Assembly: GCF_964213995.1 (NCBI RefSeq)
Contig: NC_135814.1
Span: forward strand, 14,942,001-15,006,000
DNA length: 64,000 nucleotides
Direction: 5' to 3'
DNA from: Mustelus asterias
Taxonomy: Eukaryota
In this document: in pieces, positions 1-22,668 of the stretch
Position numbering within the stretch: the first letter of the stretch is position 1
Layout of the letters: every line of letters starts with the position of its first letter
Notes under the pieces: model-generated
What the model was told of the DNA's origin: nothing
Seen by the model: the letters and a program-made list of their open reading frames with translations, nothing else
Database searches by the model: none
Position numbers and translations under genes: made by a program

Positions 1-784
1 AACAAGCAAACTCGAAATAGGGAAAAATAATAATCAGAAGCACAAATAGATGGGCAGAATGGCCCATTTCTGTGCTGTAAGTTTTATCTAATTGTGTAAG
101 TTTGAAGTAGTCACATAGCATATACTGATAGAAAGTTAACTTTGATATTTTTCCAACTCCAACTGTTCATTTGGATTCATAGACAGGATGTATAACCTGT
201 TTGATCTATGCAAAGGAAAAAAAAAGATTTGGAATAGATGATAAAGGGTGACTGTAATATTCTCCTCCACTTGAGTCACTGCTGAGATGAACGAACCATT
301 TAGTACATCTGACTGAACTCAAAGAACCAGCAACAGCCCAGACTCAAACAGAAGCAAATTGCACTGCTTTGACCTTGGAAAGATCACATGACATCTGACC
401 ACCACACTCGCCTACACTTTGCGACTGATGTTGTAGGTAGGCCATCACTTTCCTCTAACTGTACTTTCCATCTGATTGGAAACTCCTGCACTCAGGTTCC
501 TCAGCATGTTCCCAAGCTTCCCATCACTTTATCAGAAATCACGACTGATTGTTGACCATTCAACATGTTTATATCACAACTACACAAGAGGTTTGAATTG
601 AAAACTCTTCAAAAACAGTCAGTCAAAAATGTTGATGTACCTGATGAAACATTAAGCGTCACAAGACACGGGTGAAATCATCTCGCCTTGGTCCCCAACA
701 AACGATGGGGTCATTTTAGGTTTGGGAACTCTGTGAGCTGTGCACTTGTGGTTGCATTTTCCCACAGCAAACCTCACAAAATTA

Positions 785-1598
785 CTGCAGAAGGAGGCCA
801 TTTGGCCCATTGTGTCTGTACCGGCTCTCCAAATGACCACTGTGACTTAGTGCCATTCCTCTGCCTTTTCCCAGTACCCCTGCACATTGTTTCTATATAG
901 TAACTAATGGCCTCTTAAATACCTCGAATTGAACCTACCGCCACTACACTTCCAGATAGTGCATTCCAGACCCCAACCACTCGCTGTGAAAAAAGTTTTT
1001 TTTTGCTTCATTTGCTTCTTTTGCAAATCACTTTAAATCTGTGCCCTCTCTCTCGGTCCTTTTACCAACAGGAACAATTTATCCCTATCTACTCTGTCCA
1101 ACCCCTTCATGATTTTGAACATCTCTATTAAATTTCCTCTTAGTCTTCTTCTCGCTAAGGAGAAAAGCCCAACCACTCCAATCTATCCACATAACTGAAA
1201 TTTATCTTCCTGAGACTGTTCTTGTAAACCTTCTCTGCACTCTTTCCCATGCATTCGCACCCTTACTATACCGTGATGCCCATAAATGTACACAATATTA
1301 CAGCTGAGGTCTAATTACTGTCTTGTATAATTTCACCACAACCTCCTTGCTCTTGTACTCTGCGCCCCATTAATAAAGCTCAGAATACCCATATGTTTTA
1401 TTAACTGCTCTCACCACTTGTCCTGCCACCTTCAATGATCTACGCACATGTACATCCAGGTCCTTCTGCTACTGCGCCCCTTTAAGAATTTATCCCTATT
1501 TTATATTGTCTCTCTATGTTTTTTCTACCAAAATGCATCACCTCACACTTCCCCGCACTGAACTTCATCTGCCACCTATATGCCCACTCCACCAACTT
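785..1598 (-). mobile_element. Degenerate CR1 LINE 3' part (continues at about 2185-2300 after a Rex1 insertion)
   Basis: Similarity to other CR1 copies here (aaatgcatcacctcacac, ccaaccactcgctgtg, gaaggaggccatttggccc tail). Confidence 0.8.
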
Positions 1599-1599
1599 T

Positions 1600-2175
1600 T
1601 TGATTTGATTTGAATTGATTTATTATTGTCACATGTATTAGTATACAGTGAAAAGTATTATTTCTTGCATGCTGTACAGAGAAAGCATACCGTTCATAGA
1701 GAAGGAAAGGAGAGAGTCCAGAATGTAGTGTTACAGTCATAGCTAGGGAGGAGAGAAAAATCAACTTAATGCGAGGTAGGCCCATTCAAAAGTCTGATGG
1801 CAGCAGGGAAGAAGCTGTTCTTCAGTCAGTTTGTACGTGACCTCAGACTTTTGTATCTTTTTACCAATGGAAGAAGGGTGCATGGTGTCCTTGATTATGC
1901 TGGCTGCTTTGCCGAGGCAGTGGGAAGTGTAAACAGAGTCAATGCATGGGAGGCTGGTTTGCATGATGGATTGGGCTACATTCACGACCTTTTGTAGTTT
2001 ATTGTGGTCTTGGGCAGAGCAGGAGCCATACCAGACTGTGATACAACCAGAAAGAATGTTTTCTATGGTGCATCTGTAAAAGTTGGTGAGAGTCGTAGCT
2101 GATATGCCAAATTTCCTTAGCCTCCTGAGAAAGTAGAGGCGTTGATGGGCTTTCTTAACTATAGGCGTCGGCATG
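1600..2175 (-). mobile_element. Rex1/Babar-type LINE 3' end
   Basis: ORF 1761-2174 KKAHQRLYFLRRLRKFG...FYRCTIENILSGCITVWYG is typical of the Rex1 C-terminus; (AAATC)n tail. Confidence 0.88.
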
Positions 2176-2467
2176 GGGGCATGTCGACTTGTCTATGTCC
2201 TTTGAAGTTCTACACTGCTCTCTTTCCCATTTACAACACTTTCAAGTTTCATGCAATCTGCCAGCTTTGAAATTGTCCCCTACACCCCAAGATCTGGGAG
2301 GATGGATGGCAGAACTTCTTTAAAGCAATAATGAAGGATTTCTGTTTAGAGAGAGAGACCTCAGTAGGACTCTCATTGGCAGGAGTATGCGCAGTAACTA
2401 TCCAGTGTGAAGACGCTCCCCTCATTTCCCACTACTGGGTTTGTTGATGTCACACTGAGAAGTTTTT

Positions 2468-2800
2468 AAATTTCATTCATAGGACATGACCGTTGCTGGC
2501 TGGCCAGCATTTATTGCCCATCCCTAGTTGCCCAGGTCAACCACATTGCTGTGGCTCTGGAGTCACATGTAAGCCAGACCAGGTAAGGACGACAGATTTC
2601 CTTCCCTGAATTACATTAGTGAACTAGATGGGTTTTTACGACAATTGACAATGGTTTTATGGTCATCAGTAGATTCTTAATTCCAGATAAATATTGAATT
2701 CAAATTCCACCATCTGCGGAGGCAGGATTCGAACTCGAGTCTCCCAACATTAGCTGAGTTTCTGGATTAATAGTCTAGCGATAATACCACTAGGCCAGCC
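2468..2800 (-). mobile_element. tRNA-derived SINE (Meta-SINE-like)
   Basis: tRNA-like head, GGAAGGAAATCTG..CCTTACCTGGTCTGG..TACATGTGACTCCAG core and CAATAAATGCTGGCC tail; multiple copies in the window. Confidence 0.8.
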
Positions 2801-2806
2801 TTCTGC

Positions 2807-3010
2807 ATCGTAGAATCCCTACAATGCAGAAGGAGGCCATTTGGTCCATCAAGTCTGCACTGACTCTCCGACAGAGCATCTTAGCCAGGCCCTAACCCTG
2901 TAACCCCAAATATTTACCCCGCTAATCCCCTTAACCGCCCCCTAACCTACACATCTAGGGACACACGAAGGGGCAATTTGGCATGGCCAATCCACCTAAC
3001 CTGCACACTT
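2807..3010 (-). mobile_element. HE1-type V-SINE, 3' half
   Basis: Matches the 3' half of full copies such as 12021-12363. Confidence 0.8.
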
Positions 3011-3675
3011 GGTCTAATGTCTCCTTGATGTCAAGGGCAGCAATTCTCACCTCACCTCCAGAATTCAACTCCTTTTGTTCATGATTGTACCAAGGCTGTA
3101 ATGAAGTTTGGAACTGAGTGACCCTGAGAACATTCACAGAATCCCTGGCTGCATGTGTCAGTCCCATTTAGCTAGTTCTTTCCTCCAATCAACCCTCTGG
3201 CCCCATTTGTCTGGCCCTGCACTTAGTTATAAATTGTAAAAGCTATTCCCAGTTTTAGGATCAAATTACCTAATAATTCACCCTTCTGCAACATTAATAT
3301 TGATATAAATATTAAATATCCAATCATAATGCCACTCTTTGCCTCCAGACAGGAAAATGTAAAACGAGTTACTGAGTGCCGCTGCTCAGGGAGAGCTCCT
3401 TCTGCGGCTGCGCGTCTAGTTCCACTGTAATAGATAGGGCATATTCTACCGCGCTGTGCATTCTGGGTAGCGATATCTACCATTATCGCTCTGGGTCCTG
3501 GGACACATCCCATTAAAATCAGACTGGGAGAATCGCGTTTGGGACAGGGAATATGAAAGTAAGGTAACAAATAATCAATAAAGTGAGTACGTACTGAAAT
3601 CCCTGGCTCCAACACCACATAAAACCAATGTGTGTGTGTGTGTCGAGTAATAGAGCATAGAGTCACACATTTTTC

Positions 3676-3850
3676 ATAGAATCATAGAATCCCTACAGTG
3701 CAGACGTAAGCCATTTGGCCCATCGAGCCTGCACCGACAACAATCCTACCCAGGCCCTATCCTCGTAACCCCATATATTTACCCCACTAATCCCCCCGAC
3801 ACTAAGGGGAAATTTAGCCTGGCCAATCAACTTAACACCCACATCTTTGG
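3676..3850 (-). mobile_element. HE1-type V-SINE, 3' half
   Basis: catagaatcatagaatccctacagtgcaga tail and V-domain end. Confidence 0.8.
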
Positions 3851-3975
3851 ATATATATCCACACAATATACATATATTTTATATATTGAGTACATATATA
3901 GTGCGTATATAGGATATATAGTATACATACTATGCATATATATTGTATGTATATATATATAGAGAGAGAGAGAGA
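3851..3975. repeat. Imperfect (TA)n/(GA)n microsatellite
   Basis: Direct inspection. Confidence 0.85.
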
Positions 3976-4164
3976 TAATGCAAGCAATGTATGGTACAAT
4001 GACCGGCTGTCCCGTTCCCACTTTGGCAAACCTGTTGTTGGAATAAACTTTTTTTCAGGTAAAAAGCTGTTCCTCACTCGATAAGTCGAATTAATTATCA
4101 CTGTGAGTTCATTAGTTTCGTTGCAGGTCCTTGAAGCAGGAGGAATTAACTCACATAGGCGCCT

Positions 4165-4270
4165 TAGAGTTGACGAAGTTTCATCCAGACTCGAAACGTT
4201 GGCTCTATTCTCTCCCCACAGATGCTGTCAGACCTGCTGCGATTTTCCAGCATTTTCTGTTTTTGTTGCT
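4165..4270 (+). mobile_element. Short Penelope-derived element with degenerate minimal hammerhead motif
   Basis: TTGACGA-agtttcatccagactc-GAAA-CG-TT followed by the family tail ctctccccacagatgctgtcagacctgctg. Confidence 0.65.
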
Positions 4271-4854
4271 GGAAATATTGGGTCAGGAAACAGCTATTTC
4301 GGGAGCTTTAAAGTTAACATTTTGGTCAATAACTTTTCGTTAGAAATTAGATGTTGACTTGTTACTTTTTTTTTAGGCATGGTTTCATGAAATATTAGCA
4401 TGTTTTTTTTACCGAAATGTTAATGAATCTGTCTGCGAAGGTAGAGTTGGAGGAACTGCTCAAGTAAGCTGTCGTCTCCAGTTTGACCTGTTCCTAAAAA
4501 TTTGATCATGGGGGACAACTGATGGAATATTTAATCGCATGACATTTGACAAAGTGGCATTTACCTATTGTTTGCGAATGTATTCAGCTTGGCTGAGTGC
4601 AATGATTCCTCGAAGCATCACGGGTGCGAGTTCAGTAACCATCTAACATAAGGGGCCGAACACCAGGACAATTTCTCCTGAAAGATATGCGAGTGTGCGG
4701 CCGTGTAGGAGGCTTCAATGTACCCGGCAGTGTAACAGGTCAGACAAAAATGAGGAAACATTGGCTGAATGCCAGAATGACAAGCTCCAAATAAAATATC
4801 TACAATTTTATTTTCTACTGAAACGAATAAATCAAACTGAGAACATTCAAGATT

Positions 4855-5040
4855 ACAACAAAATACTGGCGGATGCTGGAATCTGAAACAAAAACAGAAA
4901 ATGTTGGAAAATCTCAGCAGGTCTGACAGCAAATGTGGCGAGAGAGAAGGGTCATCTTGACTCGAAACGTTGCTCTATTCCCTCTCCACAAATGCTATCA
5001 GGCCTGCTGAGCTTTTCCAGCATTTTCTGGGGTTTTTTGA
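4855..5040. mobile_element. Palindromic (inverted dimer) Penelope-derived short element
   Basis: Arm 4885-4947 (cagaaaatgttggaaaatctcagcaggtctgacagc) is the reverse complement of 4982-5029, with a central gggtcatcttgactcgaaacgtt hammerhead remnant. Confidence 0.7.
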
Positions 5041-5574
5041 GAACATTCAAGAACAGGCATTGTAATATTTAAGTCAAAATTCTGTGCGGTTTCTACGTTA
5101 CAAGAAAAACACGAAGCAAATTCCTCCTAGTTGACAAAATTATCATGGGTGTAAGTAACTTCCAAATGAAGCATTTGTACATTTTTTATTTACTTTTGGC
5201 AATAGATGGCAAGCTGTAAAAACAATAAATAAAACAAAACCCAAACCAAAGCGGATTCGCTACACTGATTCCCAGGATTGAAGCCCCGTTTCAGGGAGGT
5301 GAGATTCGGGCCTTAAGACTCCAAACAGAAAGTTCATAAACATAGCTACAGCGAGATTCAAAACATGAACACTTGCCCCATTACCCCCCACCCGCCCCCC
5401 GGTCCGGTTTCTGCTTCCCCACCCCCAGTTTATATTTCTCCCTCTCCCTCCCTGTGTTTGCATGTCTTTCTCAACCTCCTAACCCCCTGTCTGGGTCTCT
5501 CTCCCTCCTCCCATTTCTGTCTCCCACTCTCTCGCCCCTCTCCCCAGCACACCCCCGCCCCCCAACCCCCCACT

Positions 5575-5672
5575 CCACAAAAATCAGCAGAAAATGCCTA
5601 AAGATTTCGGCAGGGCTGACAGCATCCGTGGAGAGAGAATGGAGCTGACGTTTCAAGTCTGGGTGACCCTCG
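5575..5672 (-). mobile_element. Short Penelope-derived element, degenerate
   Basis: cagaaaatgc...ctgacagcatccgtggagagagaatggagctgacgtttcaagtctgggtgaccct matches the family. Confidence 0.6.
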
Positions 5673-6351
5673 AGGCAATGGTTCTCCAGTTTCCTTACAC
5701 CTCACCCCAGCCTCACACGTTTTGTGCTCCTCTCTCCCTCCCGCCGCCTGTGTTGCTTTTTTTGTAACTCGCGGACCGCCTACTCCACTCCCCTTGGTGC
5801 TGAATAGCAGGGGACCAGCAAGGGCCCTGACCAAGAAACTGATCTCAGGCTATCACAGCCAGGACGTTGTGCGTGTGTGTGTGTTTGCAGACCATGCATT
5901 CCAGTTGCATTACTCCCGACTCACCAGCACTCGATAAATCAATCGCCCATTCCAATAGACTGCCGTCGACATTAGGTTTGGGAATCTAATCTCAAGCCTC
6001 GAATTTCTCTTTACGTCCAAAAAAAAACAATAATCATCTCAACTAAAACGTCGGGAGTAATTGCAACCCTCATACGACAGTCCCTAGTTTCTGGTTTTGC
6101 CAGCTGACCCGCTCGCTGGCCAAACTGACTTGTTACCAGGCACTGTTCCAGGGGCTGTTGCATTCAGCAAAACCGAGCCTCTCTGAAGTTCCGCCGCACT
6201 CCCCCTGCCCCCTTCACCCGGCTACCTGTAAAATCGGTGTCTGTGTGTGAACAGATTATTGGAACAGAATTTCACCTGCAGACCAATGTTCCAGGCATGT
6301 GTACACCTTTCTCACCACCGTCATTATGCCAGGATTAAAAAGCATAATGGA

Positions 6352-6733
6352 CTCATCACGCAAACCAGCCTCCCATCCATTGACTCTGTCTACACTTCAC
6401 GCTGCCTCGGCAAAGCAGCCAGTATAATTAAGGACCTCAGGCACCCTGGACATTCTCTCTTCCACCTTCTTCCTTCGGGAAAAAGATACAAAAGTCTGAG
6501 GTCACGTACCAACCGACTCAAGAACAGCTTCTTCCCTGCTGCGATCAGACTTTTGAATGGACTTACCTTGCATTAAGTTGATCTTTCTCTACACCCTAGC
6601 TATGACTGTTACACTACATGCTGCACTCGCTCCTTTCCTTCTCTATGAACGGTATGTTTTGTCTGTATAGCGTGCAAGAAACAATACTTTTCACTATATG
6701 TTAATACATGTGACAATAATAAATCAAATCAAA
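6352..6733 (+). mobile_element. Rex1/Babar LINE 3' end
   Basis: ITQTSLPSIDSVYTSRCLGKAASIIKD...HPGHSLFHLLPSGKRYKSLRSRTNRLKNSFFP; (AAATC)n tail. Confidence 0.9.
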
Positions 6734-8119
6734 AAAACATTCATTGAAATATTATAAAAGAAAAAAGTTGTGGCTGAGAGAGCGAGGAGAACAAATTCTG
6801 GTGTCCTGCTCCATGCTACTCGGAACCAGAACTGCACAAATATCACACACACATTTTATTTATATGCATCAATGCATCATATCTATCAGATGCATATATG
6901 CTGTATAAAAGAGAGCAGCTTTTCTCCATATGTGGGATTGAAAGTGCTGAATGATCACTCTGCGGCAAACCTTTGAAGTCTGGCCAGTTATCTTTTAACT
7001 AGCAAGATCAGAGAAACAGAATGTCAACTGTCATACGTTAACAGAACCACTGATGCCTTGACATCACCATGTCTTAGCCTCCTTCTCCAACTTAACACTC
7101 ATTTTAATTTACACCTTCGACAGTTGGCGCTAAGAAGAAAGGAAGGATTAAAGTCAAAGTGGCAACTCCGAATCCAAATGAGTAATTTGTTGGATGTTTA
7201 TCGTACCATGGTGTTTAGATCTAACTGAAAGTCATTCTGATTTGAGTTTGTCACAGGACGATTTGTTTGCACATTTTGCATTGCTCCAGATTTAGCTTTG
7301 CAGCAACCGGAAATATCCAATCGAACTCGAGTGCAACTTGCGAAGGTTTGGATGTCAACCTTGTAATTTGTGCTTACTTCCTCAGGATTCCGCCATGGAA
7401 AGTGTACAGCGCAATGTGAACTTTAAAGTTCACACGTGGTTCACTATTTTTTTTAAGTTGGCCATCAGCAGTGTTAGCTTTTCAGTGAAAGAAGGACTAT
7501 TTTCACTCTATGTACCTCTAAATCCGGAATCTGGAAATTCCTCTTGCCAACATTAGGTTGTAAATACTTTATGGCTGGGATTTTCTGGTAGTAATGACAG
7601 CAAAACTGACAGCAGCTTCTGGAGTCTGCATATGCGTCGCTGAACAGGGAAATGCAGAAGCTGCTGTCAGTAATTCTGCATTCTCCATAAGGGTGCTATT
7701 GAGGTCCCCTCATCCCATCCTCCAGACATCAAACAACTAGAAATCACTGAGCTGATGAAAATGTTCACTCTGCACTCTTATTCTCAAAACAAAAACCTTG
7801 GAAAAGTACATAATATTGAATGAGGTGCAACTGGGTTTTTAATGTCATATCTTAATAATTACTATGAAATGGACCGGTTGTTACATAAAATGTCATTTAA
7901 GTTAGTTGAATGCCAAGTTTCTCCATTATAGTAATAAAGTCCATATTTTTGGAAAGAGGGAGATTTCATAGTAACTTCATGACAGTGTAAGCCTACTTGT
8001 GACACAAATAAATAAACTTTAAACTCCAAAAGCTTTAAACTTCAAATTCCATATTTTTGATATAATATGTTTTTAAAAGTTACTGATACTTTTGCTAATC
8101 CATGTCACTATCTGTTAAA

Positions 8120-8400
8120 TCCCTTCTAGTTAAATCCCTCAGCCTTCCCTATTTCTGTAACCCACGACAGTCCTACCTACTATCACCTGCAGGCCTCCAA
8201 CTCTGCACCTCACTCTGATGGTCTTGATTAAGGCTCCTCTCAACCTTTTCTTTTTGACCCACCTAGCCTTCAACCATCTAGGGTCTAAACTCTACAGTTT
8301 CCTCCTTAAACCCATCTATTTTGCTGCCTCCCTCTCTGTGCTCTATCTGGACAAGAACATGGCACTGGTTAAGTCACTATGGATGTTTATCTTACAAAGG
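8120..8400 (+). mobile_element. Highly degenerate L2-like LINE 3' remnant
   Basis: ccctatttctgtaacc...gccttcaaccatctagg...ctccttaaa resembles fish/shark L2 3' ends (from recall). Confidence 0.4.
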
Positions 8401-9105
8401 TCACTTCTCCTCATCTACTGTCTCTTTCATTATCACAAAGATTGCTGCCACACCCTCAAATTGTCAGACTGATGCCCATACTTCATCCAGAAATCTATTC
8501 CAATCCTCTATAGCTTCCATCAATACCTCCATGACACTGGCCTCAATTCCATCAAACATCCCAGCAAATATCTCAGGCTGAGTCAAGAGATTGAGAGCCA
8601 TAGCATGCTATTCAACTTCAAGCTCTGCTTCCTTGCCCAGTTCCTCTTCTGTTTTCGGCTTTAATTTTCTCAATAGCCTCTCCATCTCACCATTCCACAC
8701 ATTTTCATCCAAGCATTTGCAGCTCATGCCATATTGATATGGAGCTGCACACTTTTCACCTCTGTCCTCTTTAAGCTCCATTAGTTCCTTATGGCCAGTT
8801 AGTGATTTCCAAATTCTAATTCTTATAAATCTCATAATGACCTCATGCCACATTTGATTTGTGATCACCTCCTCCACATGCATATACTCTGTTCCTCTGC
8901 GAATGCACTTCTCCTCATCCCTCACACACCTTCTGCTCTCCCACTGGAAGCCACAATGCTCCTGTCTCGTGCAACTCTCTCTCTCTTCAGTTCCCTATGT
9001 TTCCATATGGCTCTCCTCCCCCCACCTCCACAAAGACTCTTTCAAAAGCCTCCTCAACAACAATTCTTTCAGTTTCTCTTCCCTATTCCCTCCCTTTTCT
9101 CAAGT

Positions 9106-10445
9106 TCATGATAGAGTCATAGAGAAATAGAGGTTTACAGCATGGAAACAGGCCCTTCAGCCCAACTTGTCCATGCTGCCCTTTTTTAAAAAAACCCTAA
9201 GCTCGTCCCAATTGCCCGCATTTTGCCCATATCCCTCTATACCCATCATACCATGTAACTATCTAAATGCTTTTTAAAAGACAAAATTGTACCTGCCTCT
9301 ACTACTACCTCTGGCAGCTTGTTCCAGACACTCACCACTCTCTGTGTGAAAAAATTGCCCCTCTGGACACTTTTGTATCTCTCCCCTCTCACCTTAAACC
9401 TATGCCCTCTAGTTTTAGACTCCCCTACCTTTGGGAAAAGATATTGACTATCTAGCTGATCTATGCCCCTCATTATTTTATAAACCTCGATAAACCTGGG
9501 TGATTGGAATCGGCTGCCGTCAATGGTGGTGGAGGCAAACACGGTAGGGTCTTTTAAGAGACTTCTGGATGAGTACATGGGACTTAATAGGATTGAGGGT
9601 TATAGGTAAGCCTATATATAGGCCTAGGTAGGTAGGGACATGACCGGCGCAACTTGTGGGCCGAAGGGCCTGTTTGTGCTGTAGTTTTTCTATGTTTCTA
9701 TGTTCTATGTTCTAAGATCACCCCCCAGCCTCCTATACTCCAGAGAACAAAGTCCCAATCTATCCAGCCTCTCCTTATAACCCAATCCATCGAGTCCCAG
9801 TAGCATCCTAGTAAATTTTTTCTGCACTCTTTCTATAATACGGTGACCAGAATTGCACAGAGTATTCCAAGTGTGGCCTTACCAATGTCTTGTACAACTT
9901 CAACAAGACGCCCCAACTCCTGTATTCAATGTTCTGACCGATGAAACCAAGCATGCCAAATGCCTTATTCACCACTCTGTCTACCTGTGACTCCACTTTC
10001 AAGGAGCTATGAACATATACCCCTTGATCTCTTTGTTCTGTAACTCTCCCCAACGCCCTACCATTAACTGAGTAAGTTCTGCCCTGGTTCAATCTACCAA
10101 AATGCATCACCTCGCATTTGTCTAAATTAAACTCCATCAGTCATTCATCAGCCCACTGGCCCACTTGATCAAGATCCCGTTGCAATTGGAGATAACTTTC
10201 TTCACTGTCCACTATGCCACCAATCTTGGTGTCATCTGCAAACTTACTAACCATGCCTCCTGTATTCTCACCCAAATCATTAATATAAATGACAAATAAC
10301 AGTGGACCCAGCACTGGTCCCTGAGCCACACCACTGGTCACAGGCCTCCAGTTTGAAAACCAACTCTCTACAACCACCCTCTGGCTTCTGTGAAGAATCC
10401 AATTTTGTATCCATATAGATACCTCACCCTGGATCCCGTGATATC
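9106..10445 (-). mobile_element. 5'-truncated CR1 LINE containing a nested opposite-strand CR1 3' end (about 9496-9713)
   Basis: ORFs 10141-10488 (GVAQGPVLGP, FADD), 9808-10137 and 9246-9578. The nested piece ends in gggccgaagggcctgtt...(TTCTATG)n. Confidence 0.92.
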
Positions 10446-10842
10446 CTTTTCCTCCTCGTCGTAAAAAGACCAAGTTGTTTTCCTGCATCTTAGGAATTAC
10501 ATTAATAAGGTGATTTCAAGGGTAGTGGGAGGAGGCAGGAGCATAAACAGTAGGGACCATTTGAGCCAAATGGCTCGTTCCATGCAGTAAAATCAATGAG
10601 CAGTGCTCGATGAATAGCAATCATTGCTGTTTTATTAAAAAGGAAATGGTTAATAGCCAAATAATACTGCCACGGAACCCAAGAACTCTGACACCATACT
10701 GTCAGTCATGGAGTAGACCTTCGGGGCACAAGTTGATGAACACAGTGCTGCATGGATGAGAAGCTAGTAGCCTGTGAGCCAAATATGTGCAAGGTACATC
10801 AAGGTACTATAACAAGGCCACATTATATGCATGAAGAAGTGG

Positions 10843-11128
10843 AGTGGCACAGTTACACAGTGGTTATCATTCAGGTTCGATTCTCGGCTTGAGTCACTGT
10901 CTGTGTGGAGTTTGCACGTGCTCCCCATGTCTGCATGGGTTTCCTCCGGGTGCCTCGGTTTCCTCCCACAGTCCAAAAGACAAGCTGGTTAGGTGTAGTG
11001 GCCATGTTAAATTCTTCCTCAGTGTACCCGAATTGGTGCCGGAGTGTGGAGACTCGGGGATTTTTACAGTAATTTCATTGCAGTGTTAATGTAAGCCTAC
11101 TTGTGACACTAATCAAATAAATCTTTAA
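10843..11128 (+). mobile_element. V-SINE with Rex1-like tail (type 2)
   Basis: V-domain (gtggagtttgcacg..ctccccatgtctgcatgggtttcctccggg) plus cagtgttaatgtaagcctacttgtgacactaat tail. Confidence 0.85.
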
Positions 11129-11460
11129 ATAAAAAGTTGAAATGGTGTCAGTTGTAATTCTTAACCTAAGGCGTTTTGGTTTCAATTGTGAGATTAGTAC
11201 AGGTCTCCCACACTTGTTTAGCTTAGTAACACCTCCAAGCTGACTCATAATCAAGTCCTTATCACTCACCACTTAAAAACAAACTTAAAATCTACCGGAA
11301 AAGCAAACTAAGAAGAAGCATGTTAACAGCAATCTAATTTTGTAGTTTTGTTTATATTCTCCTATTTCAGTCAATTTTATTTCTGCTCTCCCCTTTGCAT
11401 TGTCAGATCCTTACTGAAGTGCAGTACCAAACATAACAGATGCAGTATCCATCCTGCATG

Positions 11461-11678
11461 CAAAAGCAAAGTACTGCAGATGATGGAAATAAAACTGAAA
11501 GTGCTGGAAACACTCAGCTGGTTGGGCAGACTCTGCGCAGAGAGAAACAGAGTTAATGTTTCAGGTGGATGACCTTTGGTGCTGATGAAAGGGCATCGAC
11601 CTGAAACATCTCAGTTTCTCTCTCTACAGGTGATGCCTGACCAGCTGGGCATTTCCAATGTTTTCTGTTTTTATTTTA
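11461..11678. mobile_element. Palindromic Penelope-derived element with back-to-back hammerhead motifs
   Basis: Inverted arms around 11580. Plus strand CTGATGA-aagggcatcgacct-GAAA at about 11582-11606; mirror remnant at about 11552-11577. Confidence 0.7.
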
Positions 11679-12020
11679 GATATCCTTCATGTGTGGCATG
11701 AAAAGTGATTGCTGTCAGATTATTTGAGAGTGAGTATCAGAGTCAAGTTCAATCCCTACACATGGATACTTTCAGTAGGGATGGCTAAATATGACCATGA
11801 GTAGGAAATTTACCTTTCCTTCATCTAAAAATGCTCTTTAATCCCTGCAGAAATCATCGGTAAATCCAGAATTGAATCGGAAATCATTCCCCCATTCCAT
11901 CCTGCTGAACTATTCATTGGTTGAGTCAAGAGAGTCTCAATATCCTTTATAAAGAATATTGAAAGAGGCAATAACTTTAAATTTTCTGCTGTGAATGTCT
12001 ATTTTTTCATATCACCCTGC

Positions 12021-12363
12021 CGGTACGGTAGCACAGTGGTTAGCACTGCTGCTTCACAGCTCCAGGGTCCCGGGTTCGATTCCCGGCTCGGGTCACTGTC
12101 TGTGTGGAGTTTGCACATTCTCCTCGTGTCTGCATGGGTTTTCTCCGGGTACTCCGGTTTCCTCCCACAGTCCAAAGATGTGCGGGTTAGGTTGATTGGC
12201 CAGGTTAAAAAAAAAAATTGCTCCTTAGAGTCCTGAGATGTGTAGGTTAGAGCGATTAGTGGGTAAATATGTGGGGATAGGGCCTGGGTGGGATTGTGGT
12301 CGGTGCAGACTCGATGGGCCGAATGGTCTCCTTCTGCACTGTAGGATTTTTATGATTTTATGA
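12021..12363 (+). mobile_element. Full-length HE1-type V-SINE
   Basis: A box (tagcacagtgg), B box (ggttcgattcc), V-domain and CR1-like tail. Confidence 0.92.
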
Positions 12364-12365
12364 TC

Positions 12366-12512
12366 TCCCCACACAACCCCATCACATTGCGCACACATAC
12401 ATGCACACACACAAACACGCAAACACCCCCACACTCCCCCACACACATACACACACACACACACTCAAACACAAACACACATACACACACACACAGATAA
12501 ATAAGCACACAT
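12366..12512. repeat. Imperfect (CA)n microsatellite
   Basis: Direct inspection. Confidence 0.85.
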
Positions 12513-12795
12513 ATTTATGTTGAATTAAGCTATAAGTATTGCTCTCCCTATAACGTTGCATATTCAAGACTCAATTTAACTGTCTCCTACCTGTTGTTCC
12601 ACAGACTTTAAAATCTTCTTTGTCTTTATTTTTGTTGTATATTAAATGCCATTAATAAAAAAATGCTAAAAATTAATGCATACATGAAATATGACCTTGG
12701 ATGAATTGATGAAAGTGTAGTTTGATGATAGCATGTTATTTAAATGACTGGGCTTTTTTTGGAATCTCTTCAGACTTCAGAAACAGTACCAGAAT

Positions 12796-13112
12796 GCAAG
12801 GTGGCACAGTGGTTAGCACTGCTGCCTCACAGCGCCAGGGACCCAGGTTCAATTCTGGCCTCAGGTCACTGTCTGTGTGGAGTTTGCACATTCTCCCCGT
12901 GTCTGTGTGGGTTTCCTCCAGATGCTCCAGTTTCCCCCCCACAATCCAAAGATGTGTGGGTTAGGTTGATTGGCCATGCTAAATTGACCCTAGTGTCAGA
13001 GGGATTAGCAAGGTAAATATGTGGGTTATGAGAGTAGGGCCTGGGTTGGATTGTGGTCGGTGCAGACTTGATGGGCTGAATGGTCTCCTTCTGCACTGTA
13101 GGGATTCAATGA
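12796..13112 (+). mobile_element. Full-length HE1-type V-SINE
   Basis: Same architecture as 12021-12363. Confidence 0.92.
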
Positions 13113-14118
13113 AACATGCTTTTGTGGCACTTCCACCCATTAAATTTGAATGCAATTGAAATAGGTAGGAATAAAATACCGCCACAAAGCTGATAAAATT
13201 GGAGTTTTGCCCAGAATAAAGATTGCCAACTGGAGGAGGTCTCACATTGTCTGGCTTTAGTAGATTCAGGGGTCTTTAATCAGAATCTGACTCTCAAGTT
13301 TGAGTCACGCATTTCCATCAATGTGCACCCAAAAGGGATTTACACAGAAGCAAGCGTGACAGTATAACTACAGTCTATAAGTAACCAACTAACTATTGTA
13401 ATAAATTAAAAAGGAAAGATCCTTCAATCAAGACAATGGAGCAACCCCATAGCTAATTAGATACAGTAGCCTGCAGTTAGTGTTCGTTTTTGTCACATCT
13501 ACTGGATAAAAACATTCAGGAATTTTGATGTGCAACATTTTCCTCGGTGTACCTTCAGCAGATGGTTTGAAAAAACAGGACAATTTAAGTTACGGTGTCA
13601 ATTGATAATTTAGCTTTATGTATCTCTCCTTCCTCTCTCACCCACTTCCCCCACCCCGGCCCCCACCCCCTTACGCGCCTCCACACCGCCAGCCCCCATC
13701 CCCACCCCCGAGCCTTCTCTCCACCTCGCACAGACACAGCACAGACAGAGGTAGAATGTATTTGCTACACCTCAACGCATACACACTTAAGTCTGTCTGT
13801 ATTTAGGGTACCCTTAATCCTAGTGGTTTCACAAGTGAAACCTGAAAATAGGGCTCTCTCACTGACCCACTTTATTGAATGCGGATATCTGAAGATTGGA
13901 CAAGTCGAGTTGAAAAAAAATAATTTCAGTATAGGCCATTGTGAAGTATGAAAACGTTAACTCTTCGCAACGACGTTTGCTTAATACAACGGCATGTGGA
14001 GAGGTGGCCGGTACATCATTGCCTGGCATCTGACTCGGAGCTCACAACACGGCAATGCTTTGCTAAGTAGCTTCCGGGTCCCTGCAGCAACTCCTCGCCA
14101 AAGCATCAACTCTGAGAA

Positions 14119-14135
14119 GGAGCTGTCCGGTGCTG
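14119..14135 (-). promoter_or_regulatory. Non-canonical RE1 (both half-sites, zero spacer)
   Basis: Minus strand CAGCACC-GGACAGCTCC: left and right RE1 half-sites without the 2-nt spacer, 20 bp from the canonical site. Confidence 0.55.
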
Positions 14136-14155
14136 TTCCCGGAGCCTGAACTGCT

Positions 14156-14176
14156 TTCAGCACCACGGACAGAGTC
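14156..14176 (+). promoter_or_regulatory. RE1/NRSE (REST binding site) in intron 1
   Basis: TTCAGCACCACGGACAGAGTC matches the canonical RE1 TTCAGCACCACGGACAGCGCC at 19/21 positions. Confidence 0.9.
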
Positions 14177-14571
14177 ATATTGCACAACGCACAGACAGAA
14201 CAGCGCAAACGGCAGTTCAAGTAGATGGCGGGATTCACCCAATATAAAAACTTAGGCACTCTGGACTTTGTACATGTGGCATCATGGTATAAACATGAGA
14301 ACAAACTCGATCATAAAGTATTTTGCACATACGTCGAATACCGCGGGTGCATTAACACGAACACTACACCAGCGCGAATCTTTAATTGGCATTATTATAC
14401 ACAATATCATCACCACTCTGCAGTACGGTTGATATATTTCCAGGGACGTTACCTCAACATGTCCTTTCTGACATTTGGCTTCATATTGGCTGCGTAACCT
14501 CCACCGATTTGTCTGCAATTCCCTTCTCTCAGCCTCCTTTCCCCAGTAATAAACCGAGAGGGTGTACTTAC

Positions 14572-14662
14572 GGGAATGTGCAGTTGTCAGGAAGATCCAT
14601 AGGCTGATAATGGAGAGGGAAAAGGCGAAGAGGAAGCGTTCTCTGCTAGTGTGTGGGTCCAT
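14572..14662 (-). CDS. First coding exon (signal peptide) of an unidentified, probably neuronal, secreted or type-I membrane protein gene; remaining exons not found in the window
   Basis: Minus strand reads aaaacATGG (strong Kozak), then 30 codons MDPHTSRERFLFAFSLSIISLWIFLTTAHS plus 1 nt, then a GTAAGT donor at 14571-14566. Charged N-region, hydrophobic core and small-residue end (T-A-H-S) fit a signal peptide, and the phase-1 intron is typical of signal-peptide exons. It lies in repeat-free CpG-enriched DNA with an RE1 site downstream. Confidence 0.75.
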
Positions 14663-14954: not shown

Positions 14955-15333
14955 TCCAGCACTGAGCAACACTCCAGTACTGAACTACATTCAATCCAGT
15001 ACTGAGCTACACTCACTCCAGTACTGAGCTACACACATTCCAGTACTGAGCTACACACATTCCAGGAAAGAGCTACACACACTCCAGTACTGAGCTACAC
15101 ACGTTCCAGTACTGAGCTACACACACTCCAGTTCTGAGATACACACACTCCAGGACTGACCTCCACACACTCCAGTACTGACCTCCACACACTCCAGTGC
15201 TCAGCTACACTCATTCCAGTACTGATCTACACTCACTCCAACACTGGGCTACACTCACTCCAGTGCTGAGCTACACTCACTCCAGTACAGAGTTACACAC
15301 ACTCCAGTATTGACCGACACACACTCCAGTACT
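14955..15333. repeat. 22-bp minisatellite, promoter-proximal block (about 17 units)
   Basis: Tandem CTCCAGTACTGAGCTACACACA units and variants. Confidence 0.95.
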
Positions 15334-21257: not shown

Positions 21258-22668
21258 AGTGGAAATCTGCTCTCAAACAGTGCAAACAGACAAAATCAAC
21301 TTGCAGAGTACTGATTAGAATGCGAATCCAACAACCAGCCAGGTCTTAAATGTACAGACAATGTGGGTGGAGGGAACATTAAACACAGGTTAAAGAGATG
21401 TGTATTGTCTCCAGACAGAACAGCTAGTGAAATTCTGCAAGTCCAGGAGGCAAGCTGTGGGGGTTACTGATAATGTGACACAAATCCAACATCCCGGTTT
21501 AGGCCGTCCTCATGTGTGCAGAACTTGGCTATCAGTTTCTGCTCAGCGACTCTGCGCTGTCGTGTGTCGTGAAGGCCGCCTTGGAGAACGCTTACCTGAA
21601 GATCCAAGGCTGAATGCCCGTGACTGCTGAAGTGCTCCCCCACAGGAAGAGAACAATCTTGCCTGGTGATTGTCGAGCGGTGTTCATTCATCCGTTGTCG
21701 TAGCGTCTGCCTGGTTTCCCCAATGTACCATGCCTCGGGACATCCTTTCCTGCAGCGTATCAGGTAGACAATGTTGGCCGAGTTGCAAGAGTAGGTACCG
21801 TGTACCTGGTAGATGGTGTTCTCACGTGAGATGATGGCATCCGTGTCGATGATCCGGCACGTCTTGCAGAGGTTGCTGTGGCAGAGTTGTGTGGTGTCGT
21901 GGTCACCTCAGCACCTCACTGTACCGCAAGCCCACGGATAACCTCATGATGCTCCACTTCTCCAGCTTCCACCCTAAACACGTTAAAGAAGCCATCCCCT
22001 ACGGACAAGCCCTCCGAATACACAGGATCTGCTCGGATGAGGAGGATCGCAACAGACACCCCCAGACGCTGAAAGATGCCCTCATAAGAACAGGATATGG
22101 CGCTCGACTCATCGATCAACAGTTCCAACGCACCACAGCGAAAAACCGCACCGACCTCCTCATAAGACAAACACAGGACACGGTGGACAGAGTACCCTTC
22201 GTCGTCCAGTACTTCCCCGGAGCGGAGAAGCTACGGCATCTCCTCCGGAGCCTTCAACATGTCATTGATGAAGACGAACATCTCGCCAAGGCCATCCCCA
22301 CACCCCCACTTCTTGCCTTCAAACAACCACGCAACCTCAAACAGACCATTGTCCGCAGCAAACTACCCAGCCTTCAGGAGAACAGTGACCACGACACCAC
22401 ACAACCCTGCCACAGCAACCTCTGCAAGACGTGCCGGATCATCGACACGGATGCCATCATCTCACGTGAGAACACCATCTACCAGGTACACGGTACCTAC
22501 TCTTGCAACTCGGCCAACATTGTCTACCTGATATGCTGCAGGAAAGGATGTCCCTCCACCCACATTGTCTGTACATTTAAGACCTGGCTGGTTGTAGGAT
22601 TCGCATTCTAATCAGTATTCTGCAACTTGATTTTGTCTGTTTGCACTGTTTGAGAGCAGATTTCCACT

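What the first reader, a model, noticed from the sequence alone, without database searches (positions are those of the whole stretch)
14119..14176. Inverted pair of RE1 elements that can fold into an RE1 hairpin in intron 1
Seen: a near-consensus RE1 (14156-14176) is preceded 20 bp away by its own reverse complement lacking the 2-nt spacer (14119-14135). CTGTCC-GGTGCTG can therefore pair with CAGCACC-ac-GGACAG, giving 13 bp with a 2-nt bulge. Established: REST binds canonical and variable-spacer half-site arrangements, and a small double-stranded NRSE RNA has been reported to modulate REST. Inference: this could be a cooperative double REST site, a cruciform, or an intronic RNA hairpin that displays a double-stranded RE1 as a decoy when the gene is transcribed.
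Basis: partly seen in the sequence, partly recalled or inferred. Interest (0 to 1): 0.7.

Follow-up and report, generated by a model that had tools for sequence, protein, structure and literature searches.

The report
REST silencer pair in shark CNTNAP5
A standard binding motif for the neuronal-gene repressor REST sits in the first intron of a shark contactin-associated-protein-5-like gene, next to a shortened, reversed copy that is likely a weak second REST site; the proposed RNA hairpin is predicted not to form in the gene's own transcript, so this is likely ordinary gene regulation.

Summary
The sequence observation is right. A canonical RE1 (14156-14176, +) lies 20 bp from an inverted 13-nt core lacking the 2-nt spacer (14123-14135). 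Both are about 400 nt inside the 79.7-kb first coding intron of a CNTNAP5-like gene on the minus strand; human CNTNAP5 has a promoter REST peak in 12 cell types. The pairing is not background. The second element is the only 0-1-spacer site in the 3.68-Gb genome with a full right-half tail, and 6 of 71 other canonical sites also have a second RE1-like element nearby. The hairpin reading fails on the transcribed strand: stem probability is 0-0.17 in contexts of 100 nt or more (z 0.04, -1.04), against z about -5 for a true inverted RE1 pair elsewhere in this genome. Zero-spacer 13-mers are not enriched genome-wide (60 seen, about 70 expected). The left half is mutated in 2 of 3 relatives covering it. 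Best reading: a DNA silencer with a weak auxiliary REST site, probably bound through its right half; the stem is a by-product of one motif in opposite orientations. A decoy from an antisense transcript is not excluded (about 3%).

The parts
14156..14176 (+). Canonical RE1/NRSE (left half, 2-nt spacer, right half); the likely functional silencer
   Evidence: 0 core mismatches, 2 tail mismatches to the recalled consensus; no difference listed in organisms B, D, E (list complete only for B)
14119..14128 (-). Right half-site of the second element, 9/10 to the recalled consensus; likely auxiliary REST contact
   Evidence: best right half in the window; no difference listed in B, D, E, but 10 bp has little power (P of no change 0.55)
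14129..14137 (-). Left-half-like segment of the second element (7/9), abutting the right half with no spacer; equally readable as a second right-half-like 10-mer (14129-14138 is 8/10 to the right half)
   Evidence: position 14135 differs in organisms D and E
14136..14157 (.). 22-nt loop between the two complementary cores; not conserved
   Evidence: differences at 14142 and 14154
14572..14662 (-). First coding exon of a CNTNAP5-like gene (30-aa signal peptide, phase-1 donor at 14571)
   Evidence: matches the N-termini of shark and ray 'contactin-associated protein-like 5' (P0005, P0007, P0017); exon 2 at C14:14876867 and exon 3 at C14:14870484
1..14571 (-). 5' part of the 79.7-kb first coding intron, which holds the RE1 pair

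Best explanation
This is likely a DNA silencer: REST likely binds the canonical RE1 about 400 bp inside intron 1 of a CNTNAP5-like gene and would repress it outside neurons, and the inverted, spacer-less copy 20 bp away is likely a weak auxiliary site for a second REST molecule, held mainly through its right half. Shown: the two motifs, the gene, the orientation, the non-random pairing and the change in two relatives. Inferred: REST occupancy (from the motif and from human CNTNAP5 ChIP data), right-half binding by zinc fingers 3-5 (from human EMSA work), and an origin either by loss of 2 bp from an older second RE1 (slippage in the CACCAC tract) or by a 10-bp tandem duplication of a right-half-like unit. 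The 13-bp stem is a by-product: any two copies of one motif in opposite orientation are complementary. My odds: about 0.85 that the canonical site is functional, about 0.5 that the second element binds REST measurably.
For: Gene identity. Human CNTNAP5 promoter REST peak in 12 cell types (PMC4055426 Table S2). A paralog on the same contig has an 8-bp-gap RE1 in its intron 1. Spacer-2 cores are in excess genome-wide, 407 against 183-184 for spacers 3 and 8. RE1s cluster: 6 of 71 canonical loci have a second element within 200 bp, 2 of them inverted; 27 human pairs lie within 100 bp, and KCNN4 has a strong site plus a weak lineage-variable one (PMC1557810). Right-half-only sites bind REST in EMSA, and tandem sites each take one REST (PMC8096226). 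The second element is the only 0-1-spacer core with a C[G/T]CC tail in the genome. Identity between the copies is confined to the motif cores, which fits selection on each or old decay better than a recent inverted duplication. Two human REST-peak oligos without a canonical motif carry the exact zero-spacer core at the peak centre, one with the same tail (PMC9903721 supplement file 8).
Against: No binding or reporter data exist for this shark. Conservation is not demonstrated: the relatives are too close (P of no change in 21 bp 0.29), and 15 private differences in D and E were not listed. Single half-sites and spacers other than 8-9 gave no significant repression in MPRAduo, so the second element may add nothing. 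All 27 close human pairs were head-to-tail, so an inverted pair is less ordinary than this reading implies. On the non-transcribed strand the stem is stable (P 0.39-1.0).
Confidence: 0.62

Rival explanations
1. Only the canonical RE1 works; the inverted copy is a non-binding relic (a decayed second RE1 or a lucky 10-bp duplication) that is drifting.
For: Zero spacer is outside the reported gaps. There is no genome-wide excess (60 vs about 70), and 49 other zero-spacer loci have random tails (mean 0.76 of 4, about 1.0 without 16 repeat-family copies, against 1.92 at canonical sites). The head is AA instead of TT, and a core C is changed in D and E.
Against: Its right half is 9/10 and shows no listed change in three relatives; it is unique among compressed sites; human zero-spacer sites occur at REST peak centres.
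Confidence: 0.25
2. REST binds the zero-spacer element as a whole 'compressed' RE1 (both halves), and the head-to-head geometry lets two REST molecules bind cooperatively.
For: Two exact zero-spacer cores at human REST peak centres, which my rough estimate puts above half-site chance (0.1 or fewer expected). Older ChIP work accepted a site one base shorter than canonical (PMC2687797).
Against: Finger 6 would have no room (model in PMC8096226; the extension to gap 0 is my inference). Both human examples have a full TT head, which this site lacks. The left half is mutated in D and E. Variable distances in known pairs argue against REST-REST contacts.
Confidence: 0.08
3. An RNA hairpin displays a double-stranded RE1 as a REST decoy or switch (NRSE dsRNA-like); if so, it would most plausibly come from an antisense (+ strand) transcript.
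For: The stem persists on the + strand in all ten contexts (P 0.39-1.0 at 37 C). The D/E change would leave a G.U wobble on the sense strand. An NRSE dsRNA is reported (news piece PMC2249939).
Against: On the sense strand the stem is not the MFE in 76- or 141-nt contexts; P is 0-0.17 for 100 nt or more and at most 0.36 with both competing helices blocked. 15% of 239 GC-matched 58-mers of the window fold as well. + strand z is only -0.7 to -1.8, against -3.5 to -5.3 for the inverted pair L151. The duplex would carry a bulge instead of the paired spacer and lack both flanks. The D change is uncompensated (no C>T anywhere in X12) and gives an A.C mismatch on the + strand. No Rfam match.
Confidence: 0.03
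4. The inverted repeat extrudes as a DNA cruciform that modulates REST access.
For: A single-strand DNA hairpin of about -12 kcal/mol is predicted; the site is near a promoter, where negative supercoiling arises (general knowledge).
Against: Loop of 22 nt, 62% GC, bulged 13-bp arms; z -0.8 to -2.0, MFE frequency at most 0.05. Cruciforms favour perfect arms with short AT-rich loops (recalled).
Confidence: 0.02

Closest known systems
Canonical RE1/NRSE silencer bound by REST/NRSF (JASPAR MA0138, as described in PMC9903721)
   Same: 21-bp left half + 2 bp + right half, in intron 1 of a neuronal gene whose human relative has a REST peak
   Different: The human CNTNAP5 main peak is at the promoter; here the site is about 400 bp into the intron. 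Positional orthology was not tested.
Tandem or clustered RE1s (SNAP25, L1CAM, KCNN4, CELSR3, PCDH-gamma; PMC1557810, PMC8096226)
   Same: A strong site with a second, weaker, lineage-variable site within 100 bp
   Different: The 27 reported human pairs are all head-to-tail; this pair is head-to-head and the second site has no spacer
Non-canonical (7-9 bp gap) and half-site-only RE1 classes
   Same: The second element has both core halves in the right order and a 9/10 right half
   Different: Gap 0 is not among the classes reported in the passages read; it is one base shorter than the '0-insertion' class of PMC2687797, which is defined on 10-bp halves
NRSE dsRNA (Kuwabara et al. 2004; seen only through the news piece PMC2249939)
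   Same: A duplex containing RE1 sequence is formally possible
   Different: No RNA is known here; the duplex would be bulged and truncated, and is predicted not to form in the sense transcript

Membership tests
Canonical RE1/NRSE (site 14156-14176) | Left and right half cores with a 2-bp spacer | tested here: met
   0 core mismatches, 19 of 21 overall (consensus recalled)
Canonical RE1/NRSE (site 14156-14176) | Association with a neuronal REST target gene | tested here: met
   CNTNAP5-like gene; human CNTNAP5 REST peaks; one-to-one orthology among three shark paralogs not resolved
Canonical RE1/NRSE (site 14156-14176) | Conservation above flanking DNA | tested here: inconclusive
   0 listed changes in three relatives, but P=0.29 by chance and lists incomplete for D and E
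Canonical RE1/NRSE (site 14156-14176) | REST binding and repression | not testable with these tools
   needs EMSA, ChIP or reporter
Full (canonical or non-canonical) RE1 (second element) | Gap of 2 or 7-9 bp between the halves | tested here: not met
   gap 0; allowed gaps from PMC8096226 and PMC9903721
Full (canonical or non-canonical) RE1 (second element) | Class enriched genome-wide with consensus flanks | tested here: not met
   60 vs about 70 expected; random tails at 49 loci
Right-half-only RE1 (second element) | Near-consensus 10-bp right half | tested here: met
   9/10
Right-half-only RE1 (second element) | REST occupancy | not testable with these tools
   only indirect human parallels
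NRSE dsRNA / structured RNA decoy | Stem forms in the transcribed RNA | tested here: not met
NRSE dsRNA / structured RNA decoy | Compensatory covariation | tested here: inconclusive
   one stem change, uncompensated in D, wobble-compatible on the sense strand; too few species
NRSE dsRNA / structured RNA decoy | An RNA exists over the site | not testable with these tools
   no RNA run was available to lay

The most novel reading that the evidence does not exclude
An antisense transcript from intron 1 folds the two inverted RE1 cores into a duplex that binds REST and relieves or converts repression of the CNTNAP5-like gene. That would be a genomic source for the still unexplained NRSE dsRNA; inverted RE1 pairs in sharks (this one and the far stronger L151 pair on contig C9) would be its templates.
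Probability: 0.03. Interest if true: 0.8.

Novelty: new member of a known kind. Interest (0 to 1): 0.22.

Why it matters
As best explained it is modest. It suggests that REST control of the CNTNAP5 family reaches back to cartilaginous fishes, and it gives a natural test case for whether REST uses a zero-gap or half site next to a strong site. It would matter much more if an inverted RE1 pair produced a REST-binding duplex RNA, since where such an RNA comes from is, to my recollection, unresolved; for that question locus L151 is a better substrate than this one.

Tried and rejected
Signal-peptide homology search with a 40-aa reference found nothing; the gene was identified through the discoidin exon instead. 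Reading ORF lists by eye did not reveal exons. The run search listed no RNA holder; this says nothing about expression. The backward-pattern control of the genome search (13 for spacer 0) was rejected as a baseline because it is 8-15 for every spacer; spacers 3 and 8 with a CpG correction were used instead. Spacer 1 gave 272 matches, several in repeat clusters, and was not used as baseline. A recent inverted duplication was rejected because identity stops at the 13-nt cores. Exon 1 of the paralog at C14:11.16 Mb was not found in 185 kb upstream of its exon 2. The other paralog aligns only over exon 1 and has no RE1 near it, so the paralogs give no evidence on the pair. Rfam: 0 matches at E up to 1. 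Earlier scan findings: none in three look-ups. MPRAduo activity of the two human zero-spacer oligos could not be found in the readable supplements (three files too large, others cut), and I could not see whether spacer 0 is plotted in its Fig. 3D. No host gene was found for L151 among the 145 nearest of 685 candidate ORFs. Literature searches for RE1 hairpins or inverted pairs (2 unrelated papers), compressed sites (0) and CNTNAP with RE1 (listings only, not read) found no description of this arrangement.

Full report
1. Observation. The window shows a canonical RE1 at 14156-14176 (+) and, 20 nt to its left, the two RE1 cores without spacer on the minus strand (14123-14135; tail to 14119). These are the only exact left+right core matches in the window (spacers 0-16) and in 264 kb around it (spacers 0-12). 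The RE1 consensus used is recalled; its layout (9 + 2 + 10) is stated in PMC9903721. The 13-bp stem with a 2-nt bulge and 22-nt loop is the MFE of exactly 14119-14176 on either strand. Only the cores are complementary; heads and tails differ. The pairing is beyond background: expectation 0.0007 for a zero-spacer core within 50 bp of any of 407 canonical cores, about 0.025 for any spacer 0-12. The head-to-head pattern has one match in the 3.68-Gb genome, this one.

2. The gene. An exon on the minus strand (14662-14572) encodes a 30-aa signal peptide ending in a phase-1 donor. A Pfam F5/8 type C exon lies 86 kb downstream on the same strand, and exon 2 was found at C14:14876867, so intron 1 is 79.7 kb. 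The best full-length hits of exon 3 are shark and ray 'contactin-associated protein-like 5' (up to 97%), whose N-termini match exon 1. Two more paralogs lie on the same contig. One carries an 8-bp-gap RE1 in its intron 1 but nothing like this pair near exon 1; exon 1 of the other was not found. Human CNTNAP5 has a promoter REST peak in 12 cell types and further intronic peaks (PMC4055426 Table S2, 29 rows, file cut when stored). The gene therefore belongs to a REST-target family; REST binding in the shark is inferred.

3. Is the zero-spacer form a class? Exact core counts in the genome: spacer 0 = 60, 1 = 272, 2 = 407, 3 = 183, 8 = 184. Spacer 0 creates a CpG; with CpG o/e 0.38 (664 kb) about 70 are expected, so there is no excess. 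I fetched all 49 other distinct zero-spacer loci (60 matches less this one and 10 extra array copies). Their tails match the consensus tail at 0.76 of 4 (about 1.0 after dropping 16 copies of two repeat families, my arithmetic) against 1.92 at 71 canonical loci; 1 of 49 reaches 3 of 4. Two are satellite arrays whose unit is one substitution from the core. Against a pure-chance reading, this element is the only 0-1-spacer core with a C[G/T]CC tail in the genome. Its right half is 9/10, and its 'left half' is 7/9 to the left consensus and 8/10 to the right one, so it also reads as a 10-bp tandem of right-half-like units.

4. Clustering. I examined 71 canonical loci, taken in listing order (contigs C1-C15) from the 189 matches, leaving out this site and four second members of listed clusters. 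Of these, 6 have a second left+right element within 200 bp (at most 1 core and 4 total mismatches): 4 head-to-tail and 2 inverted, L151 (two canonical-gap sites, tail-to-tail) and L152 (3-bp gap, head-to-head). In human, 27 pairs within 100 bp were all head-to-tail, and KCNN4 has a strong site plus a weak lineage-variable one (PMC1557810, passages). Clusters are therefore ordinary; inverted ones are less so.

5. Relatives. Contigs of four runs were laid at 80% or more identity; three cover the site. Organism B (20 differences, all listed) keeps both elements. Organisms D and E differ at 14135, the first C of the second element's left core. D has no C>T change anywhere, so the partner base 14158 is unchanged. 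For E one C>T is unlisted, and 15 private differences in D and E were not shown. No change is listed in the canonical site or the second right half, but this has little power (P 0.29 and 0.55). On the sense RNA the change would give a G.U wobble, so it counts against an intact second full site, not against the sense-strand stem. Its direction is unknown without an outgroup.

6. Folding. On the transcribed (minus) strand the stem probability falls from 0.95-0.99 (58 nt) to about 0.5 (76 nt) and 0-0.17 in all eight contexts of 100 nt or more at 37 C, and is lower at 20 C. z-scores are 0.04 and -1.04. Forcing the stem costs 8 kcal/mol in a 201-nt context, and blocking both competing helices (which differ in relatives) raises it to at most 0.36. 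15% of 239 GC-matched 58-mers fold as well. On the + strand the stem persists (0.39-1.0), with z -0.7 to -1.8. As a positive control, L151 gives an 18-bp stem with z -3.5 to -5.3 on both strands. The DNA hairpin is about -12 kcal/mol, z -0.8 to -2.0. There is no Rfam match.

7. What REST accepts. ChIP-nexus gaps are 2 or 7-9 bp; fingers 3-5 read the right half, 7-8 the left, and finger 6 spans the gap; right-half-only sites bind in EMSA; tandem sites each take one REST (PMC8096226, passages and section 22). In MPRAduo only 8-9-bp atypical gaps repressed, and convergent, divergent, flipped and single half sites did not (PMC9903721, section 11; I could not see whether gap 0 was plotted). An older definition accepted a site one base shorter than canonical (PMC2687797, passages); this element is two shorter. 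In favour of some binding, two human REST-peak oligos lacking a canonical motif have the exact zero-spacer core at nt 96-110 of 200, i.e. the peak centre, one with the same tail; two 1-spacer oligos without a canonical motif share that right half (supplement file 8, cut when stored). Their activities were not readable. The NRSE dsRNA was seen only through a news piece (PMC2249939, whole text); the original paper was not read.

8. Mechanism. Most likely (0.62): REST binds the canonical site and represses the gene outside neurons, and the second element is a weak auxiliary site, used through its right half. It arose by loss of a spacer from an older RE1 or by a 10-bp duplication. Alternatives: non-binding relic (0.25), true compressed cooperative site (0.08), RNA decoy from an antisense transcript (0.03), cruciform (0.02). 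Sequence, gene, counts, folds and the variant are shown; all binding and function steps are inferred.

9. Verdict. It is a new member of a known kind (a clustered RE1 silencer in a neuronal gene) with a small twist in orientation and spacing. Searches found no description of this arrangement. Interest 0.22.

Noticed in passing
L151 (G000:C9:81208308-81208357): Two canonical-gap RE1s in tail-to-tail inverted orientation, 18-bp near-perfect stem, RNA fold z -3.5 to -5.3 on both strands; the only match of its pattern in the genome. A much better candidate for an RE1 hairpin than the given locus. No host exon found among 145 nearby ORFs.
   Followed up: partly
L152:148-221 (G000:C9, near 90634151): Canonical RE1 with a head-to-head partner that has a 3-bp gap, about 32 bp away: a second case of an inverted partner with an atypical spacing.
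   Followed up: partly
L051-L059 region, G000:C14:13230092 (-): 8-bp-gap non-canonical RE1 about 28 kb into intron 1 of a second CNTNAP5-like paralog (exon 1 near C14:13258674); a third paralog lies near C14:11.16 Mb (+), with a canonical RE1 core at C14:11570957.
   Followed up: partly
L071 and L087: Satellite arrays of about 19-20-bp units that repeatedly generate zero-spacer RE1-like words by one substitution; L071 units reach near-perfect RE1 halves without a spacer.
   Followed up: partly
window 14969-15333: 22-bp tandem repeat, 16.6 copies, about 300 bp upstream of the start codon.
   Followed up: no
window 14156-14185: In organism B a 49-nt contig (depth 4) shares these 30 bases but has different sequence upstream, exactly at the start of the canonical RE1; it could be a chimeric read, an insertion allele or another locus.
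   Followed up: no
window 14087-14124 and 14113-14116: A G.U-rich 16-bp hairpin on the sense strand competes with the RE1 stem; organisms B, D and E all have 3 more bases inside it, so the window's lineage likely lost them.
   Followed up: partly
window 21464-22611: Two overlapping, oppositely oriented copies of a retroelement-like ORF (resembling a Penelope-type endonuclease; label recalled), besides many CR1-like reverse-transcriptase fragments across the window.
   Followed up: no
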